A stretch of 64,000 nt of DNA. Origin: Eledone cirrhosa. Lineage: Eukaryota. A model generated the notes under the pieces. It saw only the letters and a program-made list of their open reading frames with translations. It ran no database searches and was not told the origin of the DNA. Made by a program: the position numbers and the translations under genes. The stretch lies in contig OZ024745.1 in the NCBI GenBank assembly GCA_964016885.1, forward strand, positions 13,392,001-13,456,000, read 5' to 3'. Shown here piece after piece: positions 1,577 to 38,891 of this stretch; the stretch's first letter is position 1, and each line of letters opens with the position of its first letter.

Positions 1577-1661
<85 letters not shown>

Positions 1662-1684
1662 GTATATATATATATGTATGTATG

Positions 1685-1893
<209 letters not shown>

Positions 1894-2058
1894 TATATAT
1901 TTCTGCTCCCTCACAAGTTGAGCTTATTAAGTTGTGTGTGTTGGGCTGTTATTTCTATTCAATACACGCTTACCACGTTTGACTAGCGGCGCACGAGGTG
2001 ACAAATTCATCTTTCTGTGTGAACGTTGGCAAATAGTGTTTGTGGCATTTAATCAGAT

Positions 2059-2138
2059 TCTCTCGCTGATGAAGCCCAGAATTATCTGTTACAAACACAC
2101 TCAGGGCGAAACAGATTAGGGATAATCTGTCCGAGAGA
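2059..2138 (+). ncRNA. Type I hammerhead ribozyme with intact core
   Basis: Stem I TCTCTCG(2059-65)/CGAGAGA(2132-38); CTGATGA 2066-72 plus an extra A; stem II GCCC/GGGC; GAAA 2108-11; stem III CAGATTA-GGGA-TAATCTG; GUC triplet 2129-31. Confidence 0.9.
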
Positions 2139-2271
2139 TATAATGGTTATTGAGGCGGTTTGTATATTTTATCATTCTGTCTGCTTCTTGGTTAAATATT
2201 TCAAACAAATGTGGTTTTTCAACCCTTGTAATTTTAGACACACGGTTTACTGTGTTTCTTACTATATATTA

Positions 2272-2341
<70 letters not shown>

Positions 2342-2343
2342 CA

Positions 2344-2393
<50 letters not shown>

Positions 2394-3616: not shown

Positions 3617-3683
3617 TTTTATTATGCGCATTTCAAAAACAAACATCATCAAGCAATAATATTTGTGTTTTCATCAGATAAAA
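3617..3683 (-). ncRNA. Minimal (Penelope-type) type I hammerhead ribozyme
   Basis: Minus strand reads TTTTAT-CTGATGA-aaacacaaatattatt...atgatgtttgttttt-GAAA-TGCGCA-TA-ATAAAA; helix III is palindromic; AUA triplet. Confidence 0.8.
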
Positions 3684-5722: not shown

Positions 5723-5867
5723 TATCGACAGTCAATCAACAAGATCCCAGGCCTCACTCGCTTAACGAATGGGATAGAGCTCGTTAAATCGGACCGAAGA
5801 AATAATGTTTCCACTGGTCTTTCCAATTGCTAATACTATCTACCGGTTACAAATCCAGGCAGAAGTA

Positions 5868-5980
5868 AAGTCACGTCGCTGAGTGGTTAAAGAATTGGAT
5901 TCGCAATCGTGAGGTTGTGAGTTCGATTCCCGGACCGGTCAATGTGTTATGTCCTTGAGCAAGATACTTTATTTCACGTT
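5868..5980 (+). mobile_element. tRNA-derived SINE, 3'-truncated
   Basis: A-box-like tcgctgagtgg and B-box gttcgattccc, followed by gtccttgagcaagatacttta; same family as 27129. Confidence 0.75.
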
Positions 5981-10019: not shown

Positions 10020-13000
10020 TTGATGTATCATATCTTGTGTACTGTGATATGTCATATCTTGTGTACTGTGATGTGTCACATCTTGTGTACTTTACTGTGA
10101 TGTGTCATATCTTGTGTACTGTGATGTGTCATATCTTGAGTACTGTGATGTGTCATATCTTGTGTACTGTGATGTGTCATATCTTGTGTACTGTGATGTG
10201 TCATATCTTGAGTACTGTGATGTGTCATATCTTGAGTACTGTGATGTGTCATATCTTGTGTAATGTGATGTGTCATATCTTGTGTACTGTGATGTGTCAC
10301 ATCTTGTATACTGTGATGTGTCATATATTGTGTACTGTGATGTGTCATTTCTTGTTTACTGTGATGTGTCATATCTTGTGTACTGTGATGTGTCATATCT
10401 TGTGTACTGTGATGTGTCACATCTTGTGTACTGTGATGTGTCATATCTTGTGTACTATGATGTGTCATATCTTGTGTACTGTGATGTGTCACATCTTGTG
10501 TACTGTGATGTGTCACATCTTGTGTACTGTGATGTGTCACATCTTGTGTACTGTGATGTGTCATATCTTATGTACTGATGTGTCACATCTTGTGTACTGA
10601 TGTGTCACATCTTGTGTACTGTGATGTGTCATATCTTGTGTACTGATGTGTCACATCTTGTGTACTGATGTGTCACATCTTGTGTACTGTGATGTGTCAC
10701 ATCTTGTGTACTGATGTGTCACATCTTGTGTACTGTGATGTGTCATATCTTGTGTACTGATGTGTAACATATTGTGTACTGTGATGTGTCATATCTTGTG
10801 TACTGTGATGTGTCATATCTTGTGTACTGTGATGTGTCACATCTTGTGTATGTGATGTGTCACATCTTGTGTACTGTGATGTGTCATATCTTGTGTACTG
10901 TGATGTGTCATATCTTGTGTACTGTGATATGTCACATCTTGTGTACTGTGATGTGTCACATCTTGTGTACTGTGATGTGTCATATATTGTGTACTGTGAT
11001 GTGTCATATCTTGTGTACTGTGATGTGTCATATCTTGTGTACTGTGATGTGTCACATCTTGTGTACTGTGATGTGTCACATCTTGTGTACTGTGATGTGT
11101 CATATCTTGTGTACTGTGATGTGTCATATCTTGTGTACTGTGATGTGTCACATCTTGTGTACTGTGATGTGTCACATCTTGTGTACTGTGATGTGTCACA
11201 TCTTGTGTACTGTGATGTGTCACATCTTGTGTACTGTGATGTATCATATCTTGTGTACTGTGATGTGTCATATCTTGTGTACTGTGATGTGTCACATCTT
11301 GTGTACTGTGATGTGTCACATCTTGTGTACTGTGATGTGTCATATCTTGTGTACTGTGATGTGTCACATCTTGTGTACTGTGATGTGTCACATCTTGTGT
11401 ACTGTGATGTGTCATATCTTGTGTACTGTGATGTGTCACATATTGTGTACTGTGATGTGTCATATCTTGTGTACTGTGATGTGTCATATCTTGTGTACTG
11501 TGATGTGTCACATCTTGTGTACTGTGATGTGTCACATCTTGTGTACTGTGATGTGTCATATCTTATGTACTGATGTGTCACATCTTGTGTACTGATGTGT
11601 CACATCTTGTGTACTGTGATGTGTCATATCTTGTGTACTGATGTGTCACATCTTGTGTACTTATGTGTCACATCTTGTGTACTGTGATGTGTCACATCTT
11701 GTGTACTGATGTGTCACATCTTGTGTACTGTGATGTGTCATATCTTGTGTACTGATGTGTCACATATTGTGTACTGTGATGTGTCATATCTTGTGTACTG
11801 TGATGTGTCATATCTTGTGTACTGTGATGTGTCACATCTTGTGTATGTGATGTGTCACATCTTGTGTACTGTGATGTGTCATATCTTGTGTACTGTGATG
11901 TGTCATATCTTGTGTACTGTGATGTGTCACATCTTGTGTACTGTGATGTGTCATATATTGTGTACTGTGATGTGTCATATCTTGTGTACTGTGATGTGTC
12001 ACATCTTGTGTACTGTGATGTGTCACATCTTGTGTACTGTGATGTGTCATATCTTGTGTACTGTGATGTGACATATCTTGTGTACTGTGATGTGTCACAT
12101 CTTGTGTACTGTGATGTGTCACATCTTGTGTACTGTGATGTGTCATATCTTGTGTACTGTGATGTGTCACATCTTGTGTACTGTGATGTATCATATCTTG
12201 TGTACTGTGATGTGTCATATCTTGTGTACTGTGATGTGTCATACATTGTGTACTGTGATGTGTCATACATTGTGTACTGTGATGTGTCATATCTTGTGTA
12301 CTGTGATGTGTCATATCTTGTGTACTGTGATGTGTCACATCTTGTGTACTGTGATGTGTCATATCTTGTGTACTGTGATGTGTCACATCTTGTGTACTGT
12401 GATGTTCATATCTTGTGTACTGTGATGTGTCACATCTTGTGTACTGTGATGTGTCATATCTTGTGTACTGTGATGTGTCATATCTTGAGTACTGTGATGT
12501 GTCATATCTTGTGTACTGTGATGTGTCATATCTTGTGTACTGTGATGTGTCACATCTTGTGTACTGTGATGTGTCATATCTTGTGTACTATGATGTGTCA
12601 TATCTTGTGTACTGTGATGTGTCACATCTTGTGTACTGTGATGTGTCACATCTTCTGTACTGTGATGTGTCACATCTTGTGTACTGTGATGTGTCATATC
12701 TTATGTACTGATGTGTCACATCTTGTGTACTGTGATGTGTCATATCTTGTGTACTGATGTGTCACATCTTGTGTACTGATGTGTCACATCTTGTGTACTG
12801 TGATGTGTCACATCTTGTGTACTGATGTGTCACATCTTGTGTACTGTGATGTGTCATATCTTGTGTACTGATGTGTAACATATTGTGTACTGTGATGTGT
12901 CATATCTTGTGTACTGTGATGTGTCATATCTTGTGTACTGTGATGTGTCACATCTTGTGTATGTGATGTGTCACATCTTGTGTACTGTGATGTGTCATAT

Positions 13001-16000
13001 CTTGTGTACTGTGATGTGTCATATCTTGTGTACTGTGATATGTCACATCTTGTGTACTGTGATGTGTCACATCTTGTGTACTGTGATGTGTCATATATTG
13101 TGTACTGTGATGTGTCATATCTTGTGTACTGTGATGTGTCATATCTTGTGTACTGTGATGTGTCACATCTTGTGTACTGTGATGTGTCACATCTTGTGTA
13201 CTGTGATGTGTCATATCTTGTGTACTGTGATGTGTCATATCTTGTGTACTGTGATGTGTCACATCTTGTGTACTGTGATGTGTCACATCTTGTGTACTGT
13301 GATGTGTCATATCTTGTGTACTGTGATGTGTCACATCTTGTGTACTGTGATGTGTCACATCTTGTGTACTGTGATGTATCATATCTTGTGTACTGTGATG
13401 TGTCATATCTTGTGTACTGTGATGTGTCACATCTTGTGTACTGTGATGTGTCACATCTTGTGTACTGTGATGTGTCATATCTTGTGTACTGTGATGTGTC
13501 ACATCTTGTGTACTGTGATGTGTCACATCTTGTGTACTGTGATGTGTCATATCTTGTGTACTGTGATGTGTCACATCTTGTGTACTGTGATGTGTCACAT
13601 CTTGTGTACTGTGATGTATCATATCTTGTGTACTGTGATGTGTCATATCTTGTGTACTGTGATGTGTCATATCTTGTGTAATGTGATGTGTCATATCTTG
13701 TGTACTGTGATGTGTCATATATTGTGTACTGTGATGTGTCATATCTTGTGTACTGTGATGTGTCACATATTGTGTACTGTGATGTGTCATATCTTGTGTA
13801 CTGTGATGTGTCATATCTTGTGTACTGTGATGTGTCACATCTTGTGTACTGTGATGTGTCACATCTTGTGTACTGTGATGTGTCACATCTTGTGTACTGT
13901 GATGTGTCATATCTTATGTACTGATGTGTCACATCTTGTGTACTGATGTGTCACATCTTGTGTACTGTGATGTGTCATATCTTGTGTACTGATGTGTCAC
14001 ATCTTGTGTACTTATGTGTCACATCTTGTGTACTGTGATGTGTCACATCTTGTGTACTGATGTGTCACATCTTGTGTACTGTGATGTGTCATATCTTGTG
14101 TACTGATGTGTCACATATTGTGTACTGTGATGTGTCATATCTTGTGTACTGTGATGTGTCATATCTTGTGTACTGTGATGTGTCACATCTTGTGTATGTG
14201 ATGTGTCATATCTTGTGTACTGTGATGTGTCACATCTTGTGTACTGTGATGTGTCATATATTGTGTACTGTGATGTGTCATATCTTGTGTACTGTGATGT
14301 GTCACATCTTGTGTACTGTGATGTGTCATATCTTGTGTACTGTGATGTGACATATCTTGTGTACTGTGATGTGTCACATCTTGTGTACTGTGATGTGTCA
14401 CATCTTGTGTACTGTGATGTGTCATATCTTGTGTACTGTGATGTGTCACATCTTGTGTACTGTGATGTATCATATCTTGTGTACTGTGATGTGTCATATC
14501 TTGTGTACTGTGATGTGTCATACATTGTGTACTGTGATGTGTCATATCTTGTGTACTGTGATGTGTCATATCTTGTGTACTGTGATGTGTCACATCTTGT
14601 GTACTGTGATGTGTCATATCTTGTGTACTGTGATGTGTCACATCTTGTGTACTGTGATGTTCATATCTTGTGTACTGTGATGTGTCACATCTTGTGTACT
14701 GTGATGTGTCATATCTTGTGTACTGTGATGTGTCATATCTTGAGTACTGTGATGTGTCATATCTTGTGTACTGTGATGTGTCATATCTTGTGTACTGTGA
14801 TGTGTCACATCTTGTATACTGTGATGTGTCATATCTTGTGTACTGTGATGTGTCATATCTTGTGTACTGTGATGTGTCATATCTTGTGTACTGTGATGTG
14901 TCACATCTTGTGTACTGTGATGTGTCATATCTTGTGTACTGTGATGTGTCACATCTTATGTACTGATGTGTCACATCTTGTGTACTCTGATGTGTCATAT
15001 CTTGTGTACTGATGTGTCACATATTGTGTACTGTGATGTGTCATATCTTGTGTACTGTGATGTGTCATATCTTGTGAACTGTGATGTGTCACATCTTGTG
15101 TATGTGATGTGTCACATCTTGTGTACTGTGATGTGTCATATCTTGTGTACTGTGATATGTCACATCTTGTGTACTGTGATGTGTCACATCTTGTGTACTG
15201 GGTGTGTCATATCTTGTGTACTGTGATGTGTCACATCTTGTGTACTGTGATATGTCACATCTTGTGTACTGTGATGTGTCACATCTTGTGTACTGTGATA
15301 TGTCACATCTTGTGTACTGTGATGTGTCACATCTTGTGTACTGTGATGTGTCACATCTTGTGTACTGTGATGTGTCATATCTTGTGTACTGTGATGTGTC
15401 ACATCTTGTGTACTGTGATGTGTCATATCTTGTGTACTGTGATGTGTCAAATCTTGTGTACTGTGATGTGTCACATCTTGTGTACTGTGATGTGTCATAT
15501 CTTGTGTACTGTGATGTGTCATATCTTGAGTACTGTGATGTGTCACATCTTGTGTACTGTGATGTCATATCTTGTGTACTGTGATGTGTCACATCTTGTG
15601 TACTGTGATGTGTCATCTCTTGTGTACTGTGATGTGTCATATATTGTGTACTGTGATGTGTCACATCTTGTGTACTGTGATGTGTCATATCTTGTGTACT
15701 GTGATGTGTCACATCTTGTGTACTGTGATGTGTCATATCTTGTGTACTGTGATGTGTCACATCTTGTGTACTGTGATGTGTCACATCTTGTGTACAGTGA
15801 TGTGTCACATCTTGTGTACTGTGATGTGTCATATCTTGTGTACTGTGATGTGTCACATCTTGTGTACTGTGATGTGTCATATCTTGTGTACTGTGATGTG
15901 TCACATCTTGTGTACTGTGATGTGTCATATCTTGTGTACTGTGATGTGTCATATCTTGTGTACTGTGATGTGTCACATCTTGTGTACTGTGATGTGTCAT

Positions 16001-19000
16001 ATCTTGTGTACTGTGATGTGTCATATCTTGTGTACTGTGATGTGTCACATCTTGTGTACTGTGATGTGTCACATCTTGTGTACTGTGATGTGTCTATCTT
16101 GTGTACTGTGACGTGTCATATCTTGTGTACTGTGATGTGTCACATCTTGTGTACTGTGATGTGTCACATCTTGTGTACTGTGATGTGTCATATCTTGTGT
16201 AATGTGATGTGTCATATATTGTGTACTGGGATGTGTCACATCTTGTGTACTGTGATGTGTCATATCTTGTGTAATGTGATGTGTCATATCTTGTGTACTG
16301 TGATGTGTCACATCTTGTGTACTGTGATGTTTCACATCTTGTGTACTGTGATGTGTCACATCTTGTGTACTGTGGTGTGTCATATCTTGTGTAATGTGAT
16401 GTGTCATATATTGTGTACTGTGATGTGTCACATCTTGTGTACTGTGATGTGTCATATCTTGTGTACTGTGATGTGTCACATCTTGTGTACTGTGATGTGT
16501 CATATCTTGTGTACTGTGATGTGTCACATCTTGTGTACTGTGATGTATCACATCTTGTGTACTGTGATGTGTCATATCTTGTGTACTGTGATGTGTCACA
16601 TCTTGTGTACTGTGATGTGTCATATCTTGTGTACTGTGATGTGTCATATCTTGTGTACTGTGATGTGTCACATCTTGTGTACTGTGATGTGTCACATCTT
16701 GTGTACTGTGATGTGTCATATCTTGTGTACTGTGATGTGTCATATATTGTGTACTGTGATGTGTCATATCTTGTGTACTGTGATGTGTCATATCTTGTGT
16801 ACTGTGATGTGTCACATCTTGTGTAGTGTGATGTGTCATATCTTGTGTACTGTGATGTGTCATATCTTGTGTACTGTGATGTGTCACATCTTGTGTACTG
16901 TGATGTATCATATCTTGTGTACTGTGATGTGTCATATCTTGTGTACTGTGATGTGTCATATATTGTGTACTGTGATGTGTCATATCTTGTGTACTGTGAT
17001 GTGTCACATCTTGTGTACTGTGATGTGTCATATCTTGTGTACTGTGATGTGTCACATTTTGTGTACTGTGATGTGTCATATCTTGTGTACTGTGATGTGT
17101 CACATCTTGTGTACTGTGATGTGTCATATCTTGTGTACTGTGATGTGTCACATCTTGAGTACTGTGATGTGTCATATCTTGTGTACTGTGATGTGTGATA
17201 TCTTGTGTACTGTGATGTGTCACATCTTGTATACTGTGATGTGTCATATCTTGTATACTGTGATGTGTCATATCTTGTGTACTGTGATGTGTCATATCTT
17301 GTGTACTGTGATGTGTCATATCTTGTGTACTGTGATGTGTCACATCTTGTGTACTGTGATGTGTCACATCTTGTGTACTGTGATATGTCACATCTTGTGT
17401 ACTGTGATGTGTCCCATCTTGTGTACTGTGGTGTGTCATATCTTGTGTATGTGATGTGTCACATCTTGTGTACTGTGATGTGTCATATCTTGTGTACTGT
17501 GATGTGTCACATTTTGTGTACTGTGATGTGTCACATCTTGTGTACTGTGATGCGTCATATCTTGTGTACTGTGATATGTCACATCTTGTGTACTGTGATG
17601 TGTCATATCTTGTGTACTGTGATGTGTCATATCTTGAGTACTGTGATGTGTCACATCTTGTGTACTGTGATGTGTCATATCTTGTGTACTGTGATGTGTC
17701 ACATCTTGTGTACTGTGATGTGTCATATCTTGTGTACTGTGATGTGTCATATATTGTGTACTGTGATGTGTCACATCTTGTGTACTGTGATGTGTCATAT
17801 CTTGTGTACTGTGATGTGTCATATCTTGTGTACTGTGATGTGTCACATCTTGTGCACTGTGATGTGTCATATTTTGTGTACTGTGATGTGTCACATCTTG
17901 TGTATAGTGATGTGTCACATCTTGTGTACTGTGATGTGTCATATCTTGTGTACTGTGATGTGTCACATCTTGTGTACTGTGATGTGTCACATCTTGTGTA
18001 CTGTGATGTGTCATATCTTGTGTACTGTGATGTGTCATATCTTGTGTACTGTGATGTGTCACATCTTGTGTACTGTGATGTGTCATATCTTGTGTACTGT
18101 GATGTGTCACATCTTGTGTACTGTGATGTGTCATATCTTGTGTACTGTGATGTGTCATATATTGTGTACTGTGATGTGTCACATCTTGTGTACTGTGATG
18201 TGTCATATCTTGTGTACTGTGATGTGTCATATCTTGTGTACTGTGATGTGTCATATCTTGTGTACTGTGATGTGTCACATCTTGTGTACTGTGATGTGTC
18301 ACATCTTGTGTACTGTGATGTGTCACATCTTGTGTACTGTGATGTGTCATATCTTGTGTACTGTGATGTGTCATATATTGTGTACTGTGATGTGTAACAT
18401 CTTGTGTACTGTGGTGTGTCATATCTTGTGTGATGTGATGTGTCATATCTTGTGTACTGTGATGTGTCATATCTTGTGTACTGATGTGTCACATATTGTG
18501 TACTGTGATGTGTCATATCTTGTGTACTGTGATGTGTCATATCTTGTGTACTGTGATGTGTCACATCTTGTGTATGTGATGTGTCACATCTTGTGTACTG
18601 TGATGTGTCATATCTTGTGTACTGTGATGTGTCATATCTTGTGTACTGTGATATGTCACATCTTGTGTACTGTGATGTGTCACATCTTGTGTACTGTGAT
18701 GTGTCATATATTGTGTACTGTGATGTGTCATATCTTGTGTACTGTGATATGTCACATCTTGTGTACTGTGATGTGTCATATCTTGTGTACTGTGATGTGT
18801 CACATCTTGTGTACTGTGATGTGTCACATCTTGTGTACTGTGATGTGTCATATCTTGTGTACTGTGATGTGTCATATCTTGTGTACTGTGATGTGTCACA
18901 TCTTGTGTACTGTGATGTGTCACATCTTGTGTACTGTGATGTGTCACATCTTGTGTACTGTGATGTGTCACATCTTGTGTACTGTGATGTATCATATCTT

Positions 19001-22000
19001 GTGTACTGTGATGTGTCATATCTTGTGTACTGTGATGTGTCATACATTGTGTACTGTGATGTGTCATATCTTGTGTACTGTGATGTGTCATATCTTGTGT
19101 ACTGTGATGTGTCACATCTTGTGTACTGTGATGTGTCATATCTTGTGTACTGTGATGTGTCACATCTTGTGTACTCTGATGTGTCATATCTTGTGTACTG
19201 TGATGTGTCACATCTTCTGTACTGTGATGTGTCATATCTTGTGTACTGTGATGTGTCATATCTTGTGTACTGTGATGTGTCATATCTTGAGTACTGTGAT
19301 GTGTCATATCTTGTGTACTGTGATGTGTCACATCTTGTATACTGTGATGTGTCACATCTTGTGTACTGTGATGTGTCATATCTTGTGTACTGTGATGTGT
19401 CATATCTTGTGTACTGTGATGTGTCACATCTTGTGTACTGTGATGTGTCATATCTTGTGTACTGTGATGTGTCACATCTTATGTACTGATGTGTCACATC
19501 TTGTGTACTGTGATGTGTCATATCTTGTGTACTGATGTGTCACATATTGTGTACTGTGATGTCTCATATCTTGTGTACTGTGATGTGTCATATCTTGTGT
19601 ACTGTGATGTGTCACATCTTGTGTATGTGATGTGTCACATCTTGTGTACTGTGATGTGTCATATCTTGTGTACTGTGATATGTCACATCTTGTGTACTGT
19701 GATGTGTCACATCTTGTGTACTGGGTGTGTCATATCTTGTGTACTGTGATGTGTCACATCTTGTGTATGTGATGTGTCACATCTTGTGTACTGTGATGTG
19801 TCATATCTTGTGTACTGTGATATGTCACATCTTGTGTACTGTGATATGTCACATCTTGTGTACTGTGATGTGTCACATCTTGTGTACTGTGATGTGTCAT
19901 ATCTTGTGTACTGTGATATGTCACATCTTGTGTACTGTGATGTGTCACATCTTGTGTACTGTGATGTGTCACATCTTGTGTACTGTGATGTGTCACATCT
20001 TGTGTACTGTGATGTGTCATATCTTGTGTACTGTGATGTGTCATATCTTGAGTACTGTGATGTGTCACATCTTGTGTACTGTGATGTGTCATATCTTGTG
20101 TACTGTGATGTGTCACATCTTGTGTACTGTGATGTGTCATATCTTGTGTACTGTGATGTGTCATATATTGTGTACTGTGATGTGTCACATCTTGTGTACT
20201 GTGATGTGTCATATCTTGTGTACTGTGATGTGTCATATCTTGTGTACTGTGATGTGTCACATCTTTTGTACTGTGATGTGTCACATCTTGTGTACTGTGA
20301 TGTGTCATATCTTGTGTACTGTGATGTGTCATATCTTGTGTACTGTGATGTGTCACATCTTGTGTACTGTGATGTGTCACATCTTGTGTACTGTGATGTG
20401 TCATATCTTGTGTACTGTGATGTGTCATATCTTGTGTACTGTGACGTGTCATATCTTGTGTACTGTGATGTGTCATATCTTGTGTACTGTGACGTGTCAT
20501 ATCTTGTGTACTGTGATGTGTCACATCTTGTGTACTGTGATGTGTCACATCTTGTGTACTGTGATGTGTCACATCTTGTGTACTGTGATGTGTCATATCT
20601 TGTGTAATGTGATGTGTCATATATTGTGTACTGTGATGTGTCACATCTTGTGTACTGTGATGTGTCATATCTTGTGTAATGTGATGTGTCATATCTTGTG
20701 TACTGTGATGTGTCACATCTTGTGTACTGTGATGTTTCACATCTTGTGTACTGTGATGTGTCACATCTTGTGTACTGTGGTGTGTCATATCTTGTGTAAT
20801 GTGATGTGTCATATATTGTGTACTGTGATGTGTCATATCTTGTATACTGTGATATGTCACATCTTGTGTACTGTGATGTGTCATATCTTGTGTACTGTGA
20901 TGTGTCACATCTTGTGTACTGTGATGTGTCATATCTTGTGTACTGTGATGTGTCATATCTTGTGTACTGTGATGTGTCACATCTTGTGTACTGTGATGTA
21001 TCACATCTTGTGTACTGTGATGTGTCATATCTTGTGTACTGTGATGTGTCACATCTTGTGTACTGTGATGTGTCATATCTTGTGTACTGTGATGTGTCAT
21101 ATCTTGTGTACTGTGATGTGTCACATCTTGTGTACTGTGATGTGTCACATCTTGTGTACTGTGATGTGTCATATCTTGTGTACTGTGACGTGTCATATCT
21201 TGTGTACTGTGATGTGTCACATCTTGTGTACTGTGATGTGTCACATCTTGTGTACTGTGATGTGTCATATCTTGTGTACTGTGATGTGTCATATATTGTG
21301 TACTGTGATGTGTCATATCTTGTGTACTGTGATGTGTCATATCTTGTGTACTGTGATGTGTCACATCTTGTGTAGTGTGATGTGTCATATCTTGTGTACT
21401 GTGATGTGTCATATCTTGTGTACTGTGATGTGTCACATCTTGTGTACTGTGATGTATCATATCTTGTGTACTGTGATGTGTCATATCTTGTGTACTGTGA
21501 TGTGTCATATATTGTGTACTGTGATGTGTCATATCTTGTGTACTGTGATGTGTCACATCTTGTGTACTGTGATGTGTCATATCTTGTGTACTGTGATGTG
21601 TCACATTTTGTGTACTGTGATGTGTCATATCTTGTGTACTGTGATGTGTCACATCTTGTGTACTGTGATGTGTCATATCTTGTGTACTGTGATGTGTCAT
21701 ATCTTGAGTACTGTGATGTGTCATATCTTGTGTACTGTGATGTGTGATATCTTGTGTACTGTGATGTGTCACATCTTGTATACTGTGATGTGTCATATCT
21801 TGTGTACTGTGATGTGTCATATCTTGTGTACTGTGATGTGTCATATCTTGTGTACTGTGATGTGTCACATCTTGTGTACTGTGATATGTCACATCTTGTG
21901 TACTGTGATGTGTCCCATCTTGTGTACTGTGGTGTGTCATATCTTGTGTATGTGATGTGTCACATCTTGTGTACTGTGATGTGTCATATCTTGTGTACTG

Positions 22001-25000
22001 TGATGTGTCACATCTTGTGTACTGTGATGTGTCACATCTTGTGTACTGTGATGCGTCATATCTTGTGTACTGTGATATGTCACATCTTGTGTACTGTGAT
22101 GTGTCATATCTTGTGTACTGTGATGTGTCATATCCTTGAGTACTGTGATGTGTCACATCTTGTGTACTGTGATGTGTCATATCTTGTGTACTGTGATGTG
22201 TCACATCTTGTGTACTGTGATGTGTCATATCTTGTGTACTGTGATGTGTCATATATTGTGTACTGTGATGTGTCACATCTTGTGTACTGTGATGTGTCAT
22301 ATCTTGTGTACTGTGATGTGTCATATCTTGTGTACTGTGATGTGTCACATCTTGTGTACTGTGATGTGTCATATTTTGTGTACTGTGATGTGTCACATCT
22401 TGTGTACTGTGATGTGTCACATCTTGTGTATAGTGATGTGTCACATCTTGTGTACTGTGATGTGTCATATCTTGTGTACTGTGATGTGTCATATCTTGTG
22501 TACTGTGATGTGTCACATCTTGTGTACTGTGATGTGTCACATCTTGTGTACTGTGATGTGTCATATCTTGTGTACTGTGATGTGTCATATCTTGTGTACT
22601 GTGATGTGTCACATCTTGTGTACTGTGATGTGTCACATCTTGTGTACTGTGATGTGTCACATCTTGTGTACTGTGGTGTGTCATATCTTGTGTGATGTGA
22701 TGTGTCATATCTTGTGTACTGTGATGTGTCATATCTTGTGTACTGTGATGTGTCACATCTTGTGTATAGTGATGTGTCACATCTTGTGTACTGTGATGTG
22801 TCATATCTTGTGTACTGTGATGTGTCATATCTTGTGTACTGTCATGTGTCACATCTTGTGTACTGTGATGTGTCATATCTTGTGTACTGTGATGTGTCAT
22901 ATCTTGTGTATTGTGATGTGTCACATCTTGTGTACTTTGATGTGTCATATCTTGTGTACTGTGATGTGTCACATCTTGTGTACTGTGATGTCACATCTTG
23001 TGTACTGTGGTGTGTCATATCTTGTGTACTGTGATGTGTCATATCTTGTGTACTGTGATGTGTCACATCTTGTGTACTGTGATGTGTCATATCTTGTGTA
23101 CTGTGATGTGTCACATCTTGTGTACTGTGATGTGTCATATCTTGTGTACTGTGATGTGTCATATCTTGTGTACTGTGATGTGTCACATCTTGTGTACTGT
23201 GATGTGTCATATCTTGTGTACTGTGATGTGTCATATCTTGTGTACTGTGATGTGTCACATCTTGTGTACTGTGATGTGTCATATCTTGTGTACTGTGACG
23301 TGTCACATCTTGTGTTCTGTGATGTGTCATATCTTGTGTACTGTGATGTGTCATATATTGTGTACTGTGATGTGTCACATCTTGTGTACTGTGGTGTGTC
23401 ATATCTTGTGTGATGTGATGTGTCATATCTTGTGTACTGTGATGTGTCATATCTTGTGTACTGTGATGTGTCACATCTTGTGTACTGTGATGTGTCATAT
23501 CTTGAGTACTGTGATGTGTCATATCTTGTGTACTGTGATGTGTCACATCTTGTGTACTGTGATGTGTAATATCTTGTGTACTGTGATGTGTCACATCTTG
23601 TGTACTGTGATGTGTCATATCTTGTGTACTGTGATGTGTCATATCTTGTGTACTGTGATGTGTCACATCTTGTGTACTGATGTGTCACATCTTGTGTACT
23701 GTGATGTGTCATATCTTGTGTACTGTGATGTGTCACATCTTGTGTACTGTGATGTGTCATATCTAGTGTACTGATGTGTCACATCTTGTGTACTGTGATG
23801 TGTCATATCTTGTGTACTGTGATGTGTCATATCTTGTGTACTGTGATGTGTCACATCGTGTGTACTGTGATGTGTCACATCTTGTGTACTGTGATGTGTC
23901 ATATCTTGTGTACTGTGATGTGTCATATCTTGTGTACTGTGATATGTCACATCTTGTGTACTGTGATGTGTCATATCTTGTGTACTGTGATGTGTCATAT
24001 CTTGTGTACTGTGATGTGTCGTATCTTGTGTACTGTGATGTGTCATATCTTGTGTACTGTGATGTGTTATATCTTGTGTACTGTGATGTGTCATATCTTG
24101 TTTACTGTGATGTGTCATATCTTGTGTACTGTGATGTGTCATATCTTGTGTACTGTGATGTATCATATCTTGTGTACTGTGATGTGTCACATCTTGTGTA
24201 CTGTGATGTGTTATATCTTGTGTACTGTGATGTGTCATATCTTGTGTACTGTGATGTGTCATATCTTGTGTACTCTGATGTGTCATATCTTGTGTACTGA
24301 TGTGTGACATCTTGTGTACTGTGATGTGTCACATCTTGTGTACTGTGATGTGTCATATCTTGTGTACTGTGATGTGTCATATCTTGTGTACTGTGATGTG
24401 TCACATCTTGTGTACTGTGATGTGTCACATCTTGTGTACTGTGATGTGTCATATCTTGTGTACTGTGATGTGTCATATCTTGTGTACTGTGATGTGTCAC
24501 ATCTTGTGTACTGTGATGTGTCATATCTTGTGTACTGTGATGTGTCATATCTTGTGTACTGATGTGTCACATCTTGTGTACTGTGATGTGTCATATCTTG
24601 TGTACTGTGATGTGTCATATCTTGTGTACTGTGATGTATCATATCTTGTGTACTGTGATGTGTCACATCTTGTGTACTGTGATGTGTTATATCTTGTGTA
24701 CTGTGATGTGTCATATCTTGTGTACTGTGATGTGTCATATCTTGTGTACTGTGATGTGTCATATCTTGTGTACTGATGTGTGACATCTTGTGTACTGTGA
24801 TGTGTCACATCTTGTGTACTGTGATGTGTCATATCTTGTGTACTGTGATGTGTCATATCTTGTGTACTGTGATGTGTCACATCTTGTGTACTGTGATGTG
24901 TCACATCTTGTGTACTGTGATGTGTCATATCTTGTGTACTGTGATGTGTCATATCTTGTGTACTGTGATGTGTCACATCTTGTGTACTGTGATGTGTCAT

Positions 25001-25115
25001 ATCTTGTGTACTGTGATGTGTCATATCTTGTGTACTGATGTGTCACATCTTGTGTACTGTGATGTGTCATATCTTGTGTACTGTGATGTGTCATATCTTG
25101 TATACTTTACTGTGT
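10020..25115. repeat. 24-bp satellite array, ~15.1 kb (~630 units) with higher-order structure
   Basis: Consensus TGTGATGTGTCAYATCTTGTGTAC with 22- and 23-bp deletion variants; source of the VMCHILCT / DVSYLVYC / THHSTQD ORFs. Confidence 0.98.
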
Positions 25116-34413: not shown

Positions 34414-36439
34414 TTAGACTCGTTAGTTTTTAGTAAAGAATTAGCGTTAGATAGAAATAGGACCGAGAAGTAACTGGTAGATAAAGTAGAAGAAGCAATT
34501 AGAAGTGGCAACGTAGTCAGCGTGCTAGCAGCGAGAACGGCCTTGGACCAGTTCTTCGAAGGCAAAGCACGAGGGCTGTACGAGCAGAGCGGCGCGCCGG
34601 GAGGGGCTATGGATTTCGGTCCATATCTCGACGGCCTGCCGCGACTCTCGGACAGCGAGGCGGAGTTCTGCGAAAGGCCAATTTCAGCCGCTGAGATAGG
34701 GGACGCGCTGAGCCAATGCGGCAAAAGCAAATCTCCAGGTCTCGACGGTCTACCCTACGAATTTTACGTAGCAATGCCGGACTTGTTCTCTGTTCTCCTG
34801 GAAGGGGTCTACTGCAACTGGCAGGGATGCCCTCTCTCCTCCCTTCTGTACGTACTGACTCTCGAGCCACTACTGCGGAAGTTGGAGCTATTTCAGGGCA
34901 TCCCTCTGGAACCAAGACTGCGGAAAGCGGCGTCGGCCTACGCCGACGACGTGACAGTAATGGTGTAGATCACCTCGCAAATCGAGGAAGTCGGCACCCT
35001 GAAGGAATACGAAAGGTTCACAGGAGCGAAGCTGAACCGGGACAAGTCCATCGGTTGCAACTCGGATCGTGGAGAGGCAAACCGATGCCTTCCGATGGCG
35101 TCGTCGGACGCTCGACGGAAGGACAAGTGAAGCTGCTCGGTGTCTGGTTCCAGGTGGAGAAGAACTGGAACAAGGAGACGGCCAAGGTGTTTGCACTCAC
35201 CCAGAAGTGGGCCGAGTGCAAACTATCCTTGAAAGGTCGAGCGGAGGTGGCGAACACTTTTATAGCGTCTGTCATCTACTACCACTTGACCGTCGTGTCT
35301 TGTCCAGCCAAAACGCTCACCAAAATGGAGCGCGCGCTCTTCCAATTCCTTGGGAAGAAGCGGGTTCCTTTGGTGAGAAGATACATCTGCTGCCAACATC
35401 CTTCCAACGGAGGGCTAGGGATACCGTGGCTAACGATGCGCAAACACGCTCTCAGGCTGCGGCATCTCCACGTATTCCTCACCGGACAACCGGTATGGGC
35501 CCCGTTCGTGTGGCAAGCCTTCCCACGTCTCGTCTCGCTGACCGAACTGCAGTCCTGGGTCAAGCAAAGACCTAGGAAAATGGGCGACTGGCACTTCGTC
35601 ATTCTATAGAGGGTTGGTCTGCAGCAAGTGCGACGACGCGCTCGGAGAAACTCTAGGCGTGGAACTGGCCAGTCTGTTCGGTAGGACCTTCCGCCCGGGA
35701 CCGATGGACAACTTCCATAAGTCCCTGGCCTGGCAGTACTACCGAGGAGCTCTACCAGTTCGAGACAAGCTCTACAGACACGGGTGCCCGGGCAGGGACC
35801 CTCGAAAAAGATCTGTCCGAGATGTGTGCGAGACGAAGAAACTGTCGCGCACGCATTCGTACACTGCCCGGGCGTTACTGACATGTGGGGCTATGTAGAA
35901 CGACTATTGTCGCGGGTGGGACCAATCCGGTTGTCCACCGAGTCCATCGTCATGATCAAACCGCCACCCTCCTTCAAAAACGAAGGAGAGGCGGTTTTCC
36001 TTTGTGTGATAGCTATAGCGAAAGAGGTTGTATGGTGGACAAGGTTAAAAGGGCTGAGGTCAGACACCTTTCTCTCCGGCCAACAACTGATTCTTTTTTT
36101 CAAATACCACTTTGGAAGAAGAATCAGGATGGAGAGAGAGGTGCTGTAGCCCAGCAAGTTTTATGAAAGGTGGGTGAAAGTGGCGAGAATGGCCCGAGTG
36201 AATGGGCCTTCTCTCTATATCAGCCTGTAGGTTGAGGAAAAAGAGGAAGATGAGGGTTGCACATTTTTGCGGGGGTATGTGTTACCCATATGTAATGTCC
36301 ACCCCCACCCCCCTATTAGGAAAATCGATTAATTTTTAAATTGCATTTGTGATAGTATTTTACACGTTTTTATTGTATGTAAACTTCCCCCTTTGTATTT
36401 GTCCCCTTCTTTTGTGCCCCTGTGGCTAATAAAGAAACA

Positions 36440-37950: not shown

Positions 37951-38143
37951 GTGTGTTCAGCAAGTCTTTTTCAATGGTGTATGTGTATATATATATATGA
38001 TTGTTTAATTTATTAATTCATCATTGAGCCACATCGTGAATGGTTGCCAAAACATATACATCTGTGACTTTGTTTAGTTTGTGTATATGTAAATCTTTAT
38101 ATTTAATAATCTGCATTAGGTTGAGATGCAATTTGGGCAATAT

Positions 38144-38625
38144 TGGGCTGCGCTTTCTAGCAACCAGCCAACTCGCCGTAAGCAACCAATCACATTCTTT
38201 CTGACTTGACCACTGCCACGTCACGATTTTTAGCCATTTTGAATTTGTTTCTGGCGGGGATCATTTTGGAAAATTACTTGTCCTATTAGTTTGTTTCCTG
38301 ACGAGTTCGAAGCTCGAGATTTTATCCTTAATAGGATATCTCAAAATGCGAACGAAACCCAAGGGTAGAGACATAATCATGGTAAGTGTGTACGCATTTC
38401 TTCTAACTATAATTATATACCTAATTGTTTATGGTTGACGGTATATTTAGTCGATTTCCACGTGCTGTTGAAATGTTGGGTAAATATTCTATGGCGATTG
38501 GTCGAAGAGATTGGTGTCGTTTATTTATCTTATATTTCTTCATAGGTGCCTTTTAATCTTATAGCCTGGTCTAATTGATTTTTTATGTGGTTGATTATGC
38601 TAATTGGGAGAGGAAATGGTGTATA
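38144..38625 (+). mobile_element. Penelope-like pseudo-LTR: promoter motifs, hammerhead, ATG and intron
   Basis: CCAAT 38186, CCACGTCACG 38216, TGGCGGG 38252, HHR 38292-373, ATG|GTAAGT 38379-87, acceptor ttcttcatAG 38545; 38144-38303 is repeated at 39704-39863. Confidence 0.65.
38292..38373 (+). ncRNA. Type I hammerhead ribozyme with intact core
   Basis: TGTTTC-CTGACGA(38298-304)-GTTCG...CGAAC-GAAA(38354-57)-CCC-AA-GGG-TA-GAGACA; GUA triplet; extra hairpin in loop II. Confidence 0.88.
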
Positions 38626-38691
38626 TATATATTATCAAATGATTCTATGGACATACTTTATAGTATATATATATATATATATATATATAGC

Positions 38692-38736
38692 AAAGAGTTA
38701 GGACCCCGACGGCTGAGCTCCGGCAGTTTCGACAGA
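38692..38736 (-). ncRNA. 3' half of a hammerhead motif between long TA tracts
   Basis: Minus strand reads ctgtc-GAAA-ctgccggagctcagccG-TC-ggggtcctaactcttt; homologous to 2644 and 7088. Confidence 0.55.
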
Positions 38737-38745
38737 TAGATCCGA

Positions 38746-38891
<146 letters not shown>

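What the first reader, a model, noticed from the sequence alone, without database searches (positions are those of the whole stretch)
2059..2138. Textbook, probably monomer-competent hammerhead with an extra A after the core
Seen: 7-bp stem I, 4-bp GC stem II with a 26-nt loop, 7-bp stem III capped by a GGGA (GNRA) tetraloop, GUC cleavage site after 2131, and one A inserted between A9 and G10.1. Known: such an insertion is tolerated in natural HHRs (e.g. CChMVd). Inference: this is the best candidate for an active ribozyme here and would cut any plus-strand transcript crossing it.
Basis: partly seen in the sequence, partly recalled or inferred. Interest (0 to 1): 0.75.

Follow-up and report, generated by a model that had tools for sequence, protein, structure and literature searches.

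The report
Long-braced hammerhead in animal retrozyme
This is one of hundreds of near-identical copies of a small protein-free jumping repeat that carries a likely self-cutting RNA (hammerhead ribozyme), whose large loop is predicted to pair with an upstream strand that likely braces or pauses the cut; cutting itself is untested.

Summary
The motif is exactly as described and is not chance: 572 pattern matches in the genome against 0 for the control. It is a type I hammerhead inside a ~450-bp non-coding tandem unit, a young non-LTR retrozyme family. It is not textbook. The extra base after A9 is family-wide and variable (1-3 nt), and the GNRA cap is not conserved. The '26-nt loop' pairs over 16 bp with bases 2036-2053 upstream (-18.1 kcal/mol, 0 of 2000 shuffles as good). 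A like helix recurs in two sequence-distant families. Copies end at two fixed TA-rich sites, are 5'-truncated and often two-armed, as Penelope-like elements are. None of 68 copies on one contig starts at the cut site. This copy has one hammerhead only and cannot release a monomer. Activity and expression are unshown. New variant of a known kind; moderate interest.

The parts
1579..1791 (.). Left (TA)n microsatellite, likely the target site
   Evidence: the element's left arm runs into it
1784..1873 (-). Inverted 90-bp arm of the retrozyme (unit positions 131-220); its 3' end at 1784 is fixed end site 2
1870..2272 (+). Main 403-bp arm (unit position 190, across the cut site, to 141); non-coding; 3' end is fixed end site 1
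2036..2053 (+). 5' flank strand predicted to pair with loop II (12 bp + 2x2 internal loop + 4 bp; 5 bp in most copies)
2059..2065 (+). Stem I, 5' strand
2066..2072 (+). Catalytic core CUGAUGA (C3-A9)
2073..2073 (+). Extra A between A9 and G10.1; other copies carry 1-3 other bases here
2074..2077 (+). Stem II, 5' strand
2078..2103 (+). Loop II; 2081-2084 and 2087-2098 are the predicted partners of the 5' flank, 2099-2103 the return linker
2104..2111 (+). Stem II 3' strand and GAAA core
2112..2129 (+). Stem III hairpin with GGGA loop (loop not conserved in the family)
2130..2131 (+). U16.1-C17; predicted cut between 2131 and 2132
   Evidence: site inferred from the hammerhead consensus (own knowledge)
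2132..2138 (+). Stem I, 3' strand
2263..2393 (.). Internal TATATA patch running into the right (TA)n microsatellite

Best explanation
The motif is the type I hammerhead of a young, ~450-bp, protein-free tandem repeat with hundreds of copies (a non-LTR retrozyme), which is likely copied into (TA)n microsatellites by a Penelope-like reverse transcriptase, and its loop II is predicted to pair with an upstream strand that likely braces the active fold. Shown: the motif, the repeat unit, tandem arrays, two fixed 3' ends, scattered 5' ends, two-armed inverted insertions, and the flank:loop II complementarity in three families. Inferred: tandem copies are transcribed on the hammerhead strand; the flank:loop II hairpin forms first and holds the stem I and stem II 5' strands and the core in its 25-nt loop; the 3' strands then dock, the outer pairs fray, and the inner pairs tie stems I and II together as a pseudoknot; cutting releases monomers that are ligated into circles; the full helix slows re-cutting; the reverse transcriptase primes at two TA-rich sites and reads round across the cut site. 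This window's copy has a single hammerhead, so it is likely a dead-end insertion that could at most nick a read-through RNA.
For: 1452 candidates, 40 scored; the 41 full-length matches are 98-100% identical; tandem spacing 449-472 bp and six identical 457-nt monomers in one array; no long ORF within the unit. 56 of 62 3' ends lie at two TATATA patches while 5' ends are spread over the unit; in 19 of 20 two-armed loci one arm ends at each site. Tandem/inverted 5'-truncated insertions and microsatellite bias are PLE traits (passages); intact young PLEs are in this genome. Flank:loop II duplex beats shuffles in this family (0, 0, 1 and 4 of 1000) and in two families only 54-62% alike (2 and 0 of 1000); 89.9% of cells paired over 34 sequences. 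It starts 0-5 nt from stem I and 0-3 nt from stem II, uses no core or stem base, and occurs in families whose stem II has only 2 canonical pairs. About 40% of hammerheads use a pseudoknot between stems I and II (passages).
Against: No cleavage or expression data. No compensatory double change in the flank:loop II helix within the family, and the covariation score does not beat shuffles (101 of 500). The helix is weak in the 38.3-kb family (99 of 1000). With a 5-nt return linker the full 16-17 bp cannot coexist with stem II (geometry from own knowledge), and nested folding favours the non-hammerhead state by 2-4 kcal/mol. None of 68 copies on contig C1 starts at the cut, so the genome holds no footprint of cutting. 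No autonomous partner with a matching terminal repeat in the two PLE families tested. Published tests found 8 of 9 predicted retrozyme dimers inactive.
Confidence: 0.62

Rival explanations
1. Same retrozyme, but the flank:loop II helix is a lock: it forms first, out-competes stems I and II, and keeps the RNA (circle or multimer) uncut unless a protein or slow refolding opens it.
For: Nested folding gives the helix P 0.94-0.98 and stems I/II P<0.01 in every construct that includes 2036; the 457-nt circle is 3.2 kcal/mol more stable with the hammerhead unfolded; no copy of 68 starts at the cut; blocked hammerheads are known in viroids, plant retrozymes and some mussel circles (section read).
Against: The helix pairs no core or stem base, unlike viroid locks (own knowledge); nested programs cannot score pseudoknots; it starts right at the ends of stems I and II in three families; one subfamily folds as a hammerhead with no gap.
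Confidence: 0.25
2. The unit is the terminal repeat (pLTR) of an autonomous Penelope-like element, and the copies are its truncated ends rather than an independent circle-forming retrozyme.
For: PLE-type insertion pattern; 24 of 57 Xenopus retrozyme families match known TEs, nearly all PLE termini; only two of many PLE families were tested.
Against: In 41 loci the 5' flanks are (TA)n, inversion joints or unshared sequence, and arrays reach about 7 pure units; no match to 60 PLE loci or five 10-kb PLE stretches except one neighbouring copy.
Confidence: 0.08
3. The hammerhead is no longer active; the family spreads through uncut read-through multimers primed at TA patches, and the motif is kept only because the copies are young.
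For: No copy starts at the cut; inserts of up to 3 nt after A9; 8 of 9 tested dimers inactive in another study.
Against: Core and stems I-III are 97% paired and the core is nearly invariant across subfamilies about 73% alike, while flanks and loop III diverge.
Confidence: 0.05

Closest known systems
Metazoan non-LTR retrozymes (Cervera and de la Pena 2020, PMC7229834: passages and sections 14 and 17 read, supplement not readable; Li, Clavereau and Pollet 2026, 10.64898/2026.07.22.740005: parts 1-3 of 5 read)
   Same: Type I hammerhead in a 150-450-bp, low-GC (36%), non-coding tandem unit; monomers to multimers; PLEs in the same genome; self-paired predicted circle (z -2.6 and -3.1).
   Different: Most published circles are predicted to leave the hammerhead free (some mussel ones excepted); here a 16-17-bp flank:loop II helix is conserved. 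Two fixed 3' ends and two-armed insertions were not in the sections read. Expression and circles are unshown here.
Pseudoknot-stabilised hammerheads, incl. human C10orf118 (Perreault et al. 2011, PMC3088659: passages and section 10 read)
   Same: Base pairing between the ends of stems I and II replaces the usual loop-loop contact.
   Different: The examples read have 4-6 pairs; here 15-21, with a short return linker, so a two-state switch is possible.
CChMVd (+) hammerhead with A10 (PMC3705267 and PMC1636495: passages read)
   Same: Extra A between A9 and G10.1; moderate loss of rate with A, 3-4-fold gain with U.
   Different: CChMVd is a plant viroid with one fixed extra A; here the insert is variable (A, U, C, G, UA, AU, UG, AAU) in a genomic repeat.
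Penelope-like elements (Craig et al. 2021, PMC8557442: passages read)
   Same: 5' truncation, partial tandems, adjacent inverted copy, microsatellite bias, an extension at one end only.
   Different: No ORF; the two ends differ by 79 nt rather than a 30-40-bp tail; stem III is stable, not the short palindrome seen in this genome's PLE hammerheads.

Membership tests
Type I hammerhead ribozyme | CUGANGA, GAAA and NUH core around three stems, stem I open | tested here: met
   one extra base after A9
Type I hammerhead ribozyme | Stems kept across homologues | tested here: met
   97.1% of cells paired in each of stems I, II, III over 34 sequences; only one double change
Type I hammerhead ribozyme | [quoted passage not shown] | tested here: inconclusive
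   flank:loop II helix is conserved but brace and lock cannot be told apart; a distal stem I is only 71% paired and flank:flank pairing does not beat shuffles
Type I hammerhead ribozyme | Match to an Rfam hammerhead model | tested here: not met
   likely owing to the long loop II and the insert
Type I hammerhead ribozyme | Site-specific self-cleavage | not testable with these tools
   needs transcription or end mapping
Non-LTR retrozyme | Short non-coding unit with one type I hammerhead per unit | tested here: met
   449-472-bp units, 36% GC, no long ORF
Non-LTR retrozyme | Tandem copies with two or more hammerheads (family level) | tested here: met
   7 cut sites in L031, dimers to multimers in L008, L009, L011, L194
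Non-LTR retrozyme | Two hammerheads in tandem at this locus (an 'active' element in Li et al.'s sense) | tested here: not met
   one hammerhead only in 1784-2272
Non-LTR retrozyme | Expressed as linear and circular monomers | not testable with these tools
   no read data of RNA were available to lay
Autonomous Penelope-like element | RT plus GIY-YIG ORF between terminal repeats | tested here: not met
   no ORF joined to the unit in 41 loci; no match to the two PLE families tested
PLE-mobilised element | 5' truncation, inverted arm, microsatellite target, fixed 3' ends | tested here: met
PLE-mobilised element | Shared terminus with a named autonomous partner | tested here: inconclusive
   two families tested of many

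The most novel reading that the evidence does not exclude
A widespread animal hammerhead design in which a 15-21-bp helix between the 5' flank and loop II is a two-state switch: partly formed it braces the active fold, fully formed it parks the ribozyme. This would explain how animal retrozyme circles stay uncut, and the paired use of two fixed ends 79 nt apart would show how a Penelope enzyme primes both strands of a break on one circular RNA.
Probability: 0.3. Interest if true: 0.7.

Novelty: new variant of a known kind. Interest (0 to 1): 0.45.

Why it matters
Cervera and de la Pena note that animal retrozyme circles accumulate although their hammerheads look free to cut, and leave the blocking mechanism open. 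A conserved flank:loop II helix gives a directly testable answer and a natural model of a switchable ribozyme that Rfam does not detect. The two coupled end sites bear on how Penelope-like elements integrate, which still lacks an in vitro system. As a single locus the finding is ordinary: one of hundreds of copies, with no sign of a host role.

Tried and rejected
Sequencing runs: no RNA holder listed; contigs of two runs of unknown kind gave no joints or ends; neither says anything on expression. Metagenome pattern scan: 0 matches. Rfam: nothing relevant. An extended distal stem I (the fold) was rejected as the conserved partner of the flank: 71% paired, and flank:flank duplexes were matched by 263-565 of 1000 shuffles in all 7 sequences tried. 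GNRA cap as a selected feature: rejected, loop III varies and two versions are reverse complements of each other. Internal expansion of the TATATA patches as the cause of the end clustering: rejected, the unit does not resume beyond the (TA)n runs. Linear cut monomers as main template: rejected, 0 of 68 copies begin at the cut. No pol III A or B box by simple pattern. The first pair count used a structure shifted by one column and is superseded. The forced-fold gap for family L219 had an index slip and is not used. The whole genome could not be scanned with the covariance model, so distant relatives come only from loci already held. Paper searches (listings only, apart from the six papers named) showed no description of this family or of a long flank:loop II helix; the library lacks most subscription journals, and the unreadable supplement of PMC7229834 (mussel hammerheads and circles) may already show this fold. 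'Octopus' and 'cephalopod' were guesses used as search words; the organism was not established.

Full report
Observation. Bases 2050-2150 fold as a three-way hammerhead junction at -26.4 kcal/mol, z -2.77, with 1 of 200 shuffles as stable. Stem I is the open stem, so the motif is type I. Rfam does not see it. A pattern of the two core halves has 285 + 287 exact matches in the 3.0-Gb genome and 0 for the reversed control.

What it sits in. Window 2000-2240 has 1452 candidates in the genome; 40 were scored and the 41 full-length matches are 98-100% identical. The copies define a 449-472-bp unit of 36% GC with no long ORF of its own. It occurs as partial monomers, dimers and arrays; one array holds 7 cut sites and six identical 457-nt monomers. 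Subfamilies down to about 73% identity keep the core and stems. Predicted circles are more stable than all 60 shuffles in each of two monomers (z -2.6, -3.1). This matches the description of non-LTR retrozymes. The window's copy spans 1784-2272 between two (TA)n runs: a 90-bp inverted arm and a 403-bp arm with the hammerhead. It has one hammerhead, so it cannot release a unit-length RNA.

How copies arise. I mapped ends in 41 of the 100 loci then held, chosen as non-overlapping and close to this subfamily. Reading on the hammerhead strand, 56 of 62 3' ends fall at two TATATA patches, 33 at unit positions 133-143 and 23 at 218-220, and most run into (TA)n. Of the other six, three stop at 192 in a variant subfamily and continue to the second patch, one is near a locus edge and two are elsewhere. 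The 5' ends are spread over the whole unit. Fixed 3' ends with ragged 5' ends imply that the hammerhead strand is the template of reverse transcription (inference). Of 20 two-armed loci with both outer ends at a patch (16, 4 more; L011 and L063 set aside because one end is elsewhere; L267-L269 are duplicates of L266), 19 have one arm at each patch; my arithmetic gives about 2e-5 for independent 50:50 choice. The arms overlap widely in unit coordinates, so they do not divide one linear template between them. Tandem and inverted 5'-truncated insertions, microsatellite bias and a one-sided tail are Penelope-like traits (passages). The genome has a young PLE family with many intact 775-aa frames and a GIY-YIG domain and a second, older one. 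Neither shares sequence with the unit, apart from one neighbouring copy, so the partner is unidentified.

Does the genome record cutting? All 68 matches on contig C1 to the 20 bases after the cut were checked: 47 read directly, 21 inferred from a core match at the expected distance. None starts at the cut; the nearest begins 2-4 bases before it at an inversion joint, and two begin about 15 bases before. The template therefore runs across the site. That fits a ligated circle or an uncut multimer, and excludes cut linear monomers as the main template. It is no evidence that the ribozyme works.

The extra A. None of the 100 matches listed goes straight from A9 to the GCC/GUC strand; by eye the inserts are A, U, C, G, UA, AU, UG and AAU. 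Among 52 distinct copies with an insert of 1-3 bases the counts were A 25, UA 14, U 10, others 3 (the pattern required an insert). In CChMVd the extra A lowers the rate moderately, U raises it 3-4-fold, and C or G harm it (passage). The GGGA cap is not conserved; loop III varies, and two common versions are reverse complements of each other.

Bases 2036-2047 pair with 2087-2098 (12 bp) and 2050-2053 with 2081-2084. The duplex is -18.1 kcal/mol against -6.4 +/- 2.2 for shuffled flank, 0 of 2000 as good; the next best site in the element is -13.5. Most copies have one more pair (-21.7). Over 34 family members 89.9% of cells pair, with 8 of 17 pairs changing on one side only and none on both; the covariation score does not beat shuffles. 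Stronger support comes from two distant repeat families that the covariance model found in held loci. They are 54-62% alike to this region, yet each has a 17-21-pair flank:loop II helix (2 and 0 of 1000 shuffles), and their stem II has only two canonical pairs. The helix is weak in the window's second family at 38.3 kb (99 of 1000) and absent in a PLE-linked minimal hammerhead (682 of 1000). The rival pairing of the flank with the 3' flank is no better than chance.

Brace or lock. In nested folding every construct that includes base 2036 loses stems I and II (P<0.01), while those starting at 2040 or later keep them (0.93-0.98). The gap is 2-4 kcal/mol depending on the ends, and 3.2 in a 457-nt circle. 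Nested programs cannot score pseudoknots. Three points favour a brace: the helix uses no core or stem base; it starts 0-5 bases from the end of stem I and 0-3 from stem II in all three families; and pseudoknots of this kind serve about 40% of hammerheads and are needed for speed. Against a pure brace, a 5-base return linker cannot span 19 base-pair steps (about 53 A against 36-42 A; own knowledge), so the outer pairs must open for stem II to close. Stacking of stem II (-10.0) and of the outer 8 pairs (-12.1) is of like size, so a slow two-state switch is plausible. I put the brace-dominant reading at about 0.6 and the lock at 0.25. All of this step is inference.

Known and new. It works like a non-LTR retrozyme and meets the sequence tests at family level; expression and circles are untested. 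Published animal circles are mostly predicted to leave the hammerhead free, some mussel ones excepted; the supplement that shows them could not be read and may contain this fold. Ten paper searches did not turn up this family or the long helix (listed under Tried and rejected). Earlier notes of this scan on other families of the same genome report two-armed insertions, two fixed ends and pseudoknot-braced hammerheads; they are unchecked leads and show that the pattern is common in this genome.

Verdict. Observation confirmed; interpretation partly supported; new variant of a known kind; interest 0.45.

Noticed in passing
window 37998-38689 (+), core at 38298: A second, unrelated hammerhead repeat family (unit about 672 bp, 4426 candidates, 40 scored), with a long stem II extension, 3-bp stem III and GUA-type site, flanked by (TA)n.
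   Followed up: partly
window, core starting at 3677 (-): A third hammerhead-like motif with a 6-base palindromic stem III, resembling one beside a PLE fragment in L150; likely the dimer-type PLE variant.
   Followed up: no
L175:2738-2871 (-) and L197-L216: Repeat family (2345 candidates) with a type I hammerhead whose stem II is 2 bp and whose loop II pairs with the 5' flank over 17 bp.
   Followed up: partly
L143:125-259 (-) and L217-L236: Repeat family (2372 candidates) with an A-C mismatch at 10.1/11.1 and a 21-pair flank:loop II helix.
   Followed up: partly
L101-L130 (e.g. L124): Very young Penelope-like family: 124 scored matches at 96-100% identity, many with a 775-aa open frame; my relaxed scan found no canonical hammerhead in three 10-kb stretches.
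   Followed up: partly
L132-L159: PLE-like family whose copies carry a minimal hammerhead with a TATATA palindromic stem III.
   Followed up: no
window 1784-1873 (-), unit positions 141-220: The 79 bases between the two fixed end sites fold into two hairpins; a candidate recognition site for the mobilising enzyme.
   Followed up: partly
window 10021-25106 and 40375-64000: Two long satellites, 24 bp x 632 and 30 bp x 788 copies, with strong strand skew.
   Followed up: no
window 34474-36146 (+): Broken open frames that look like a LINE reverse transcriptase region, by eye.
   Followed up: no
window about 2640-2690 and 38697-38750: A short related sequence appears twice between (TA)n runs, by eye.
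   Followed up: no
window about 5865-5940 (+): tRNA-like head of a probable SINE, by eye.
   Followed up: no
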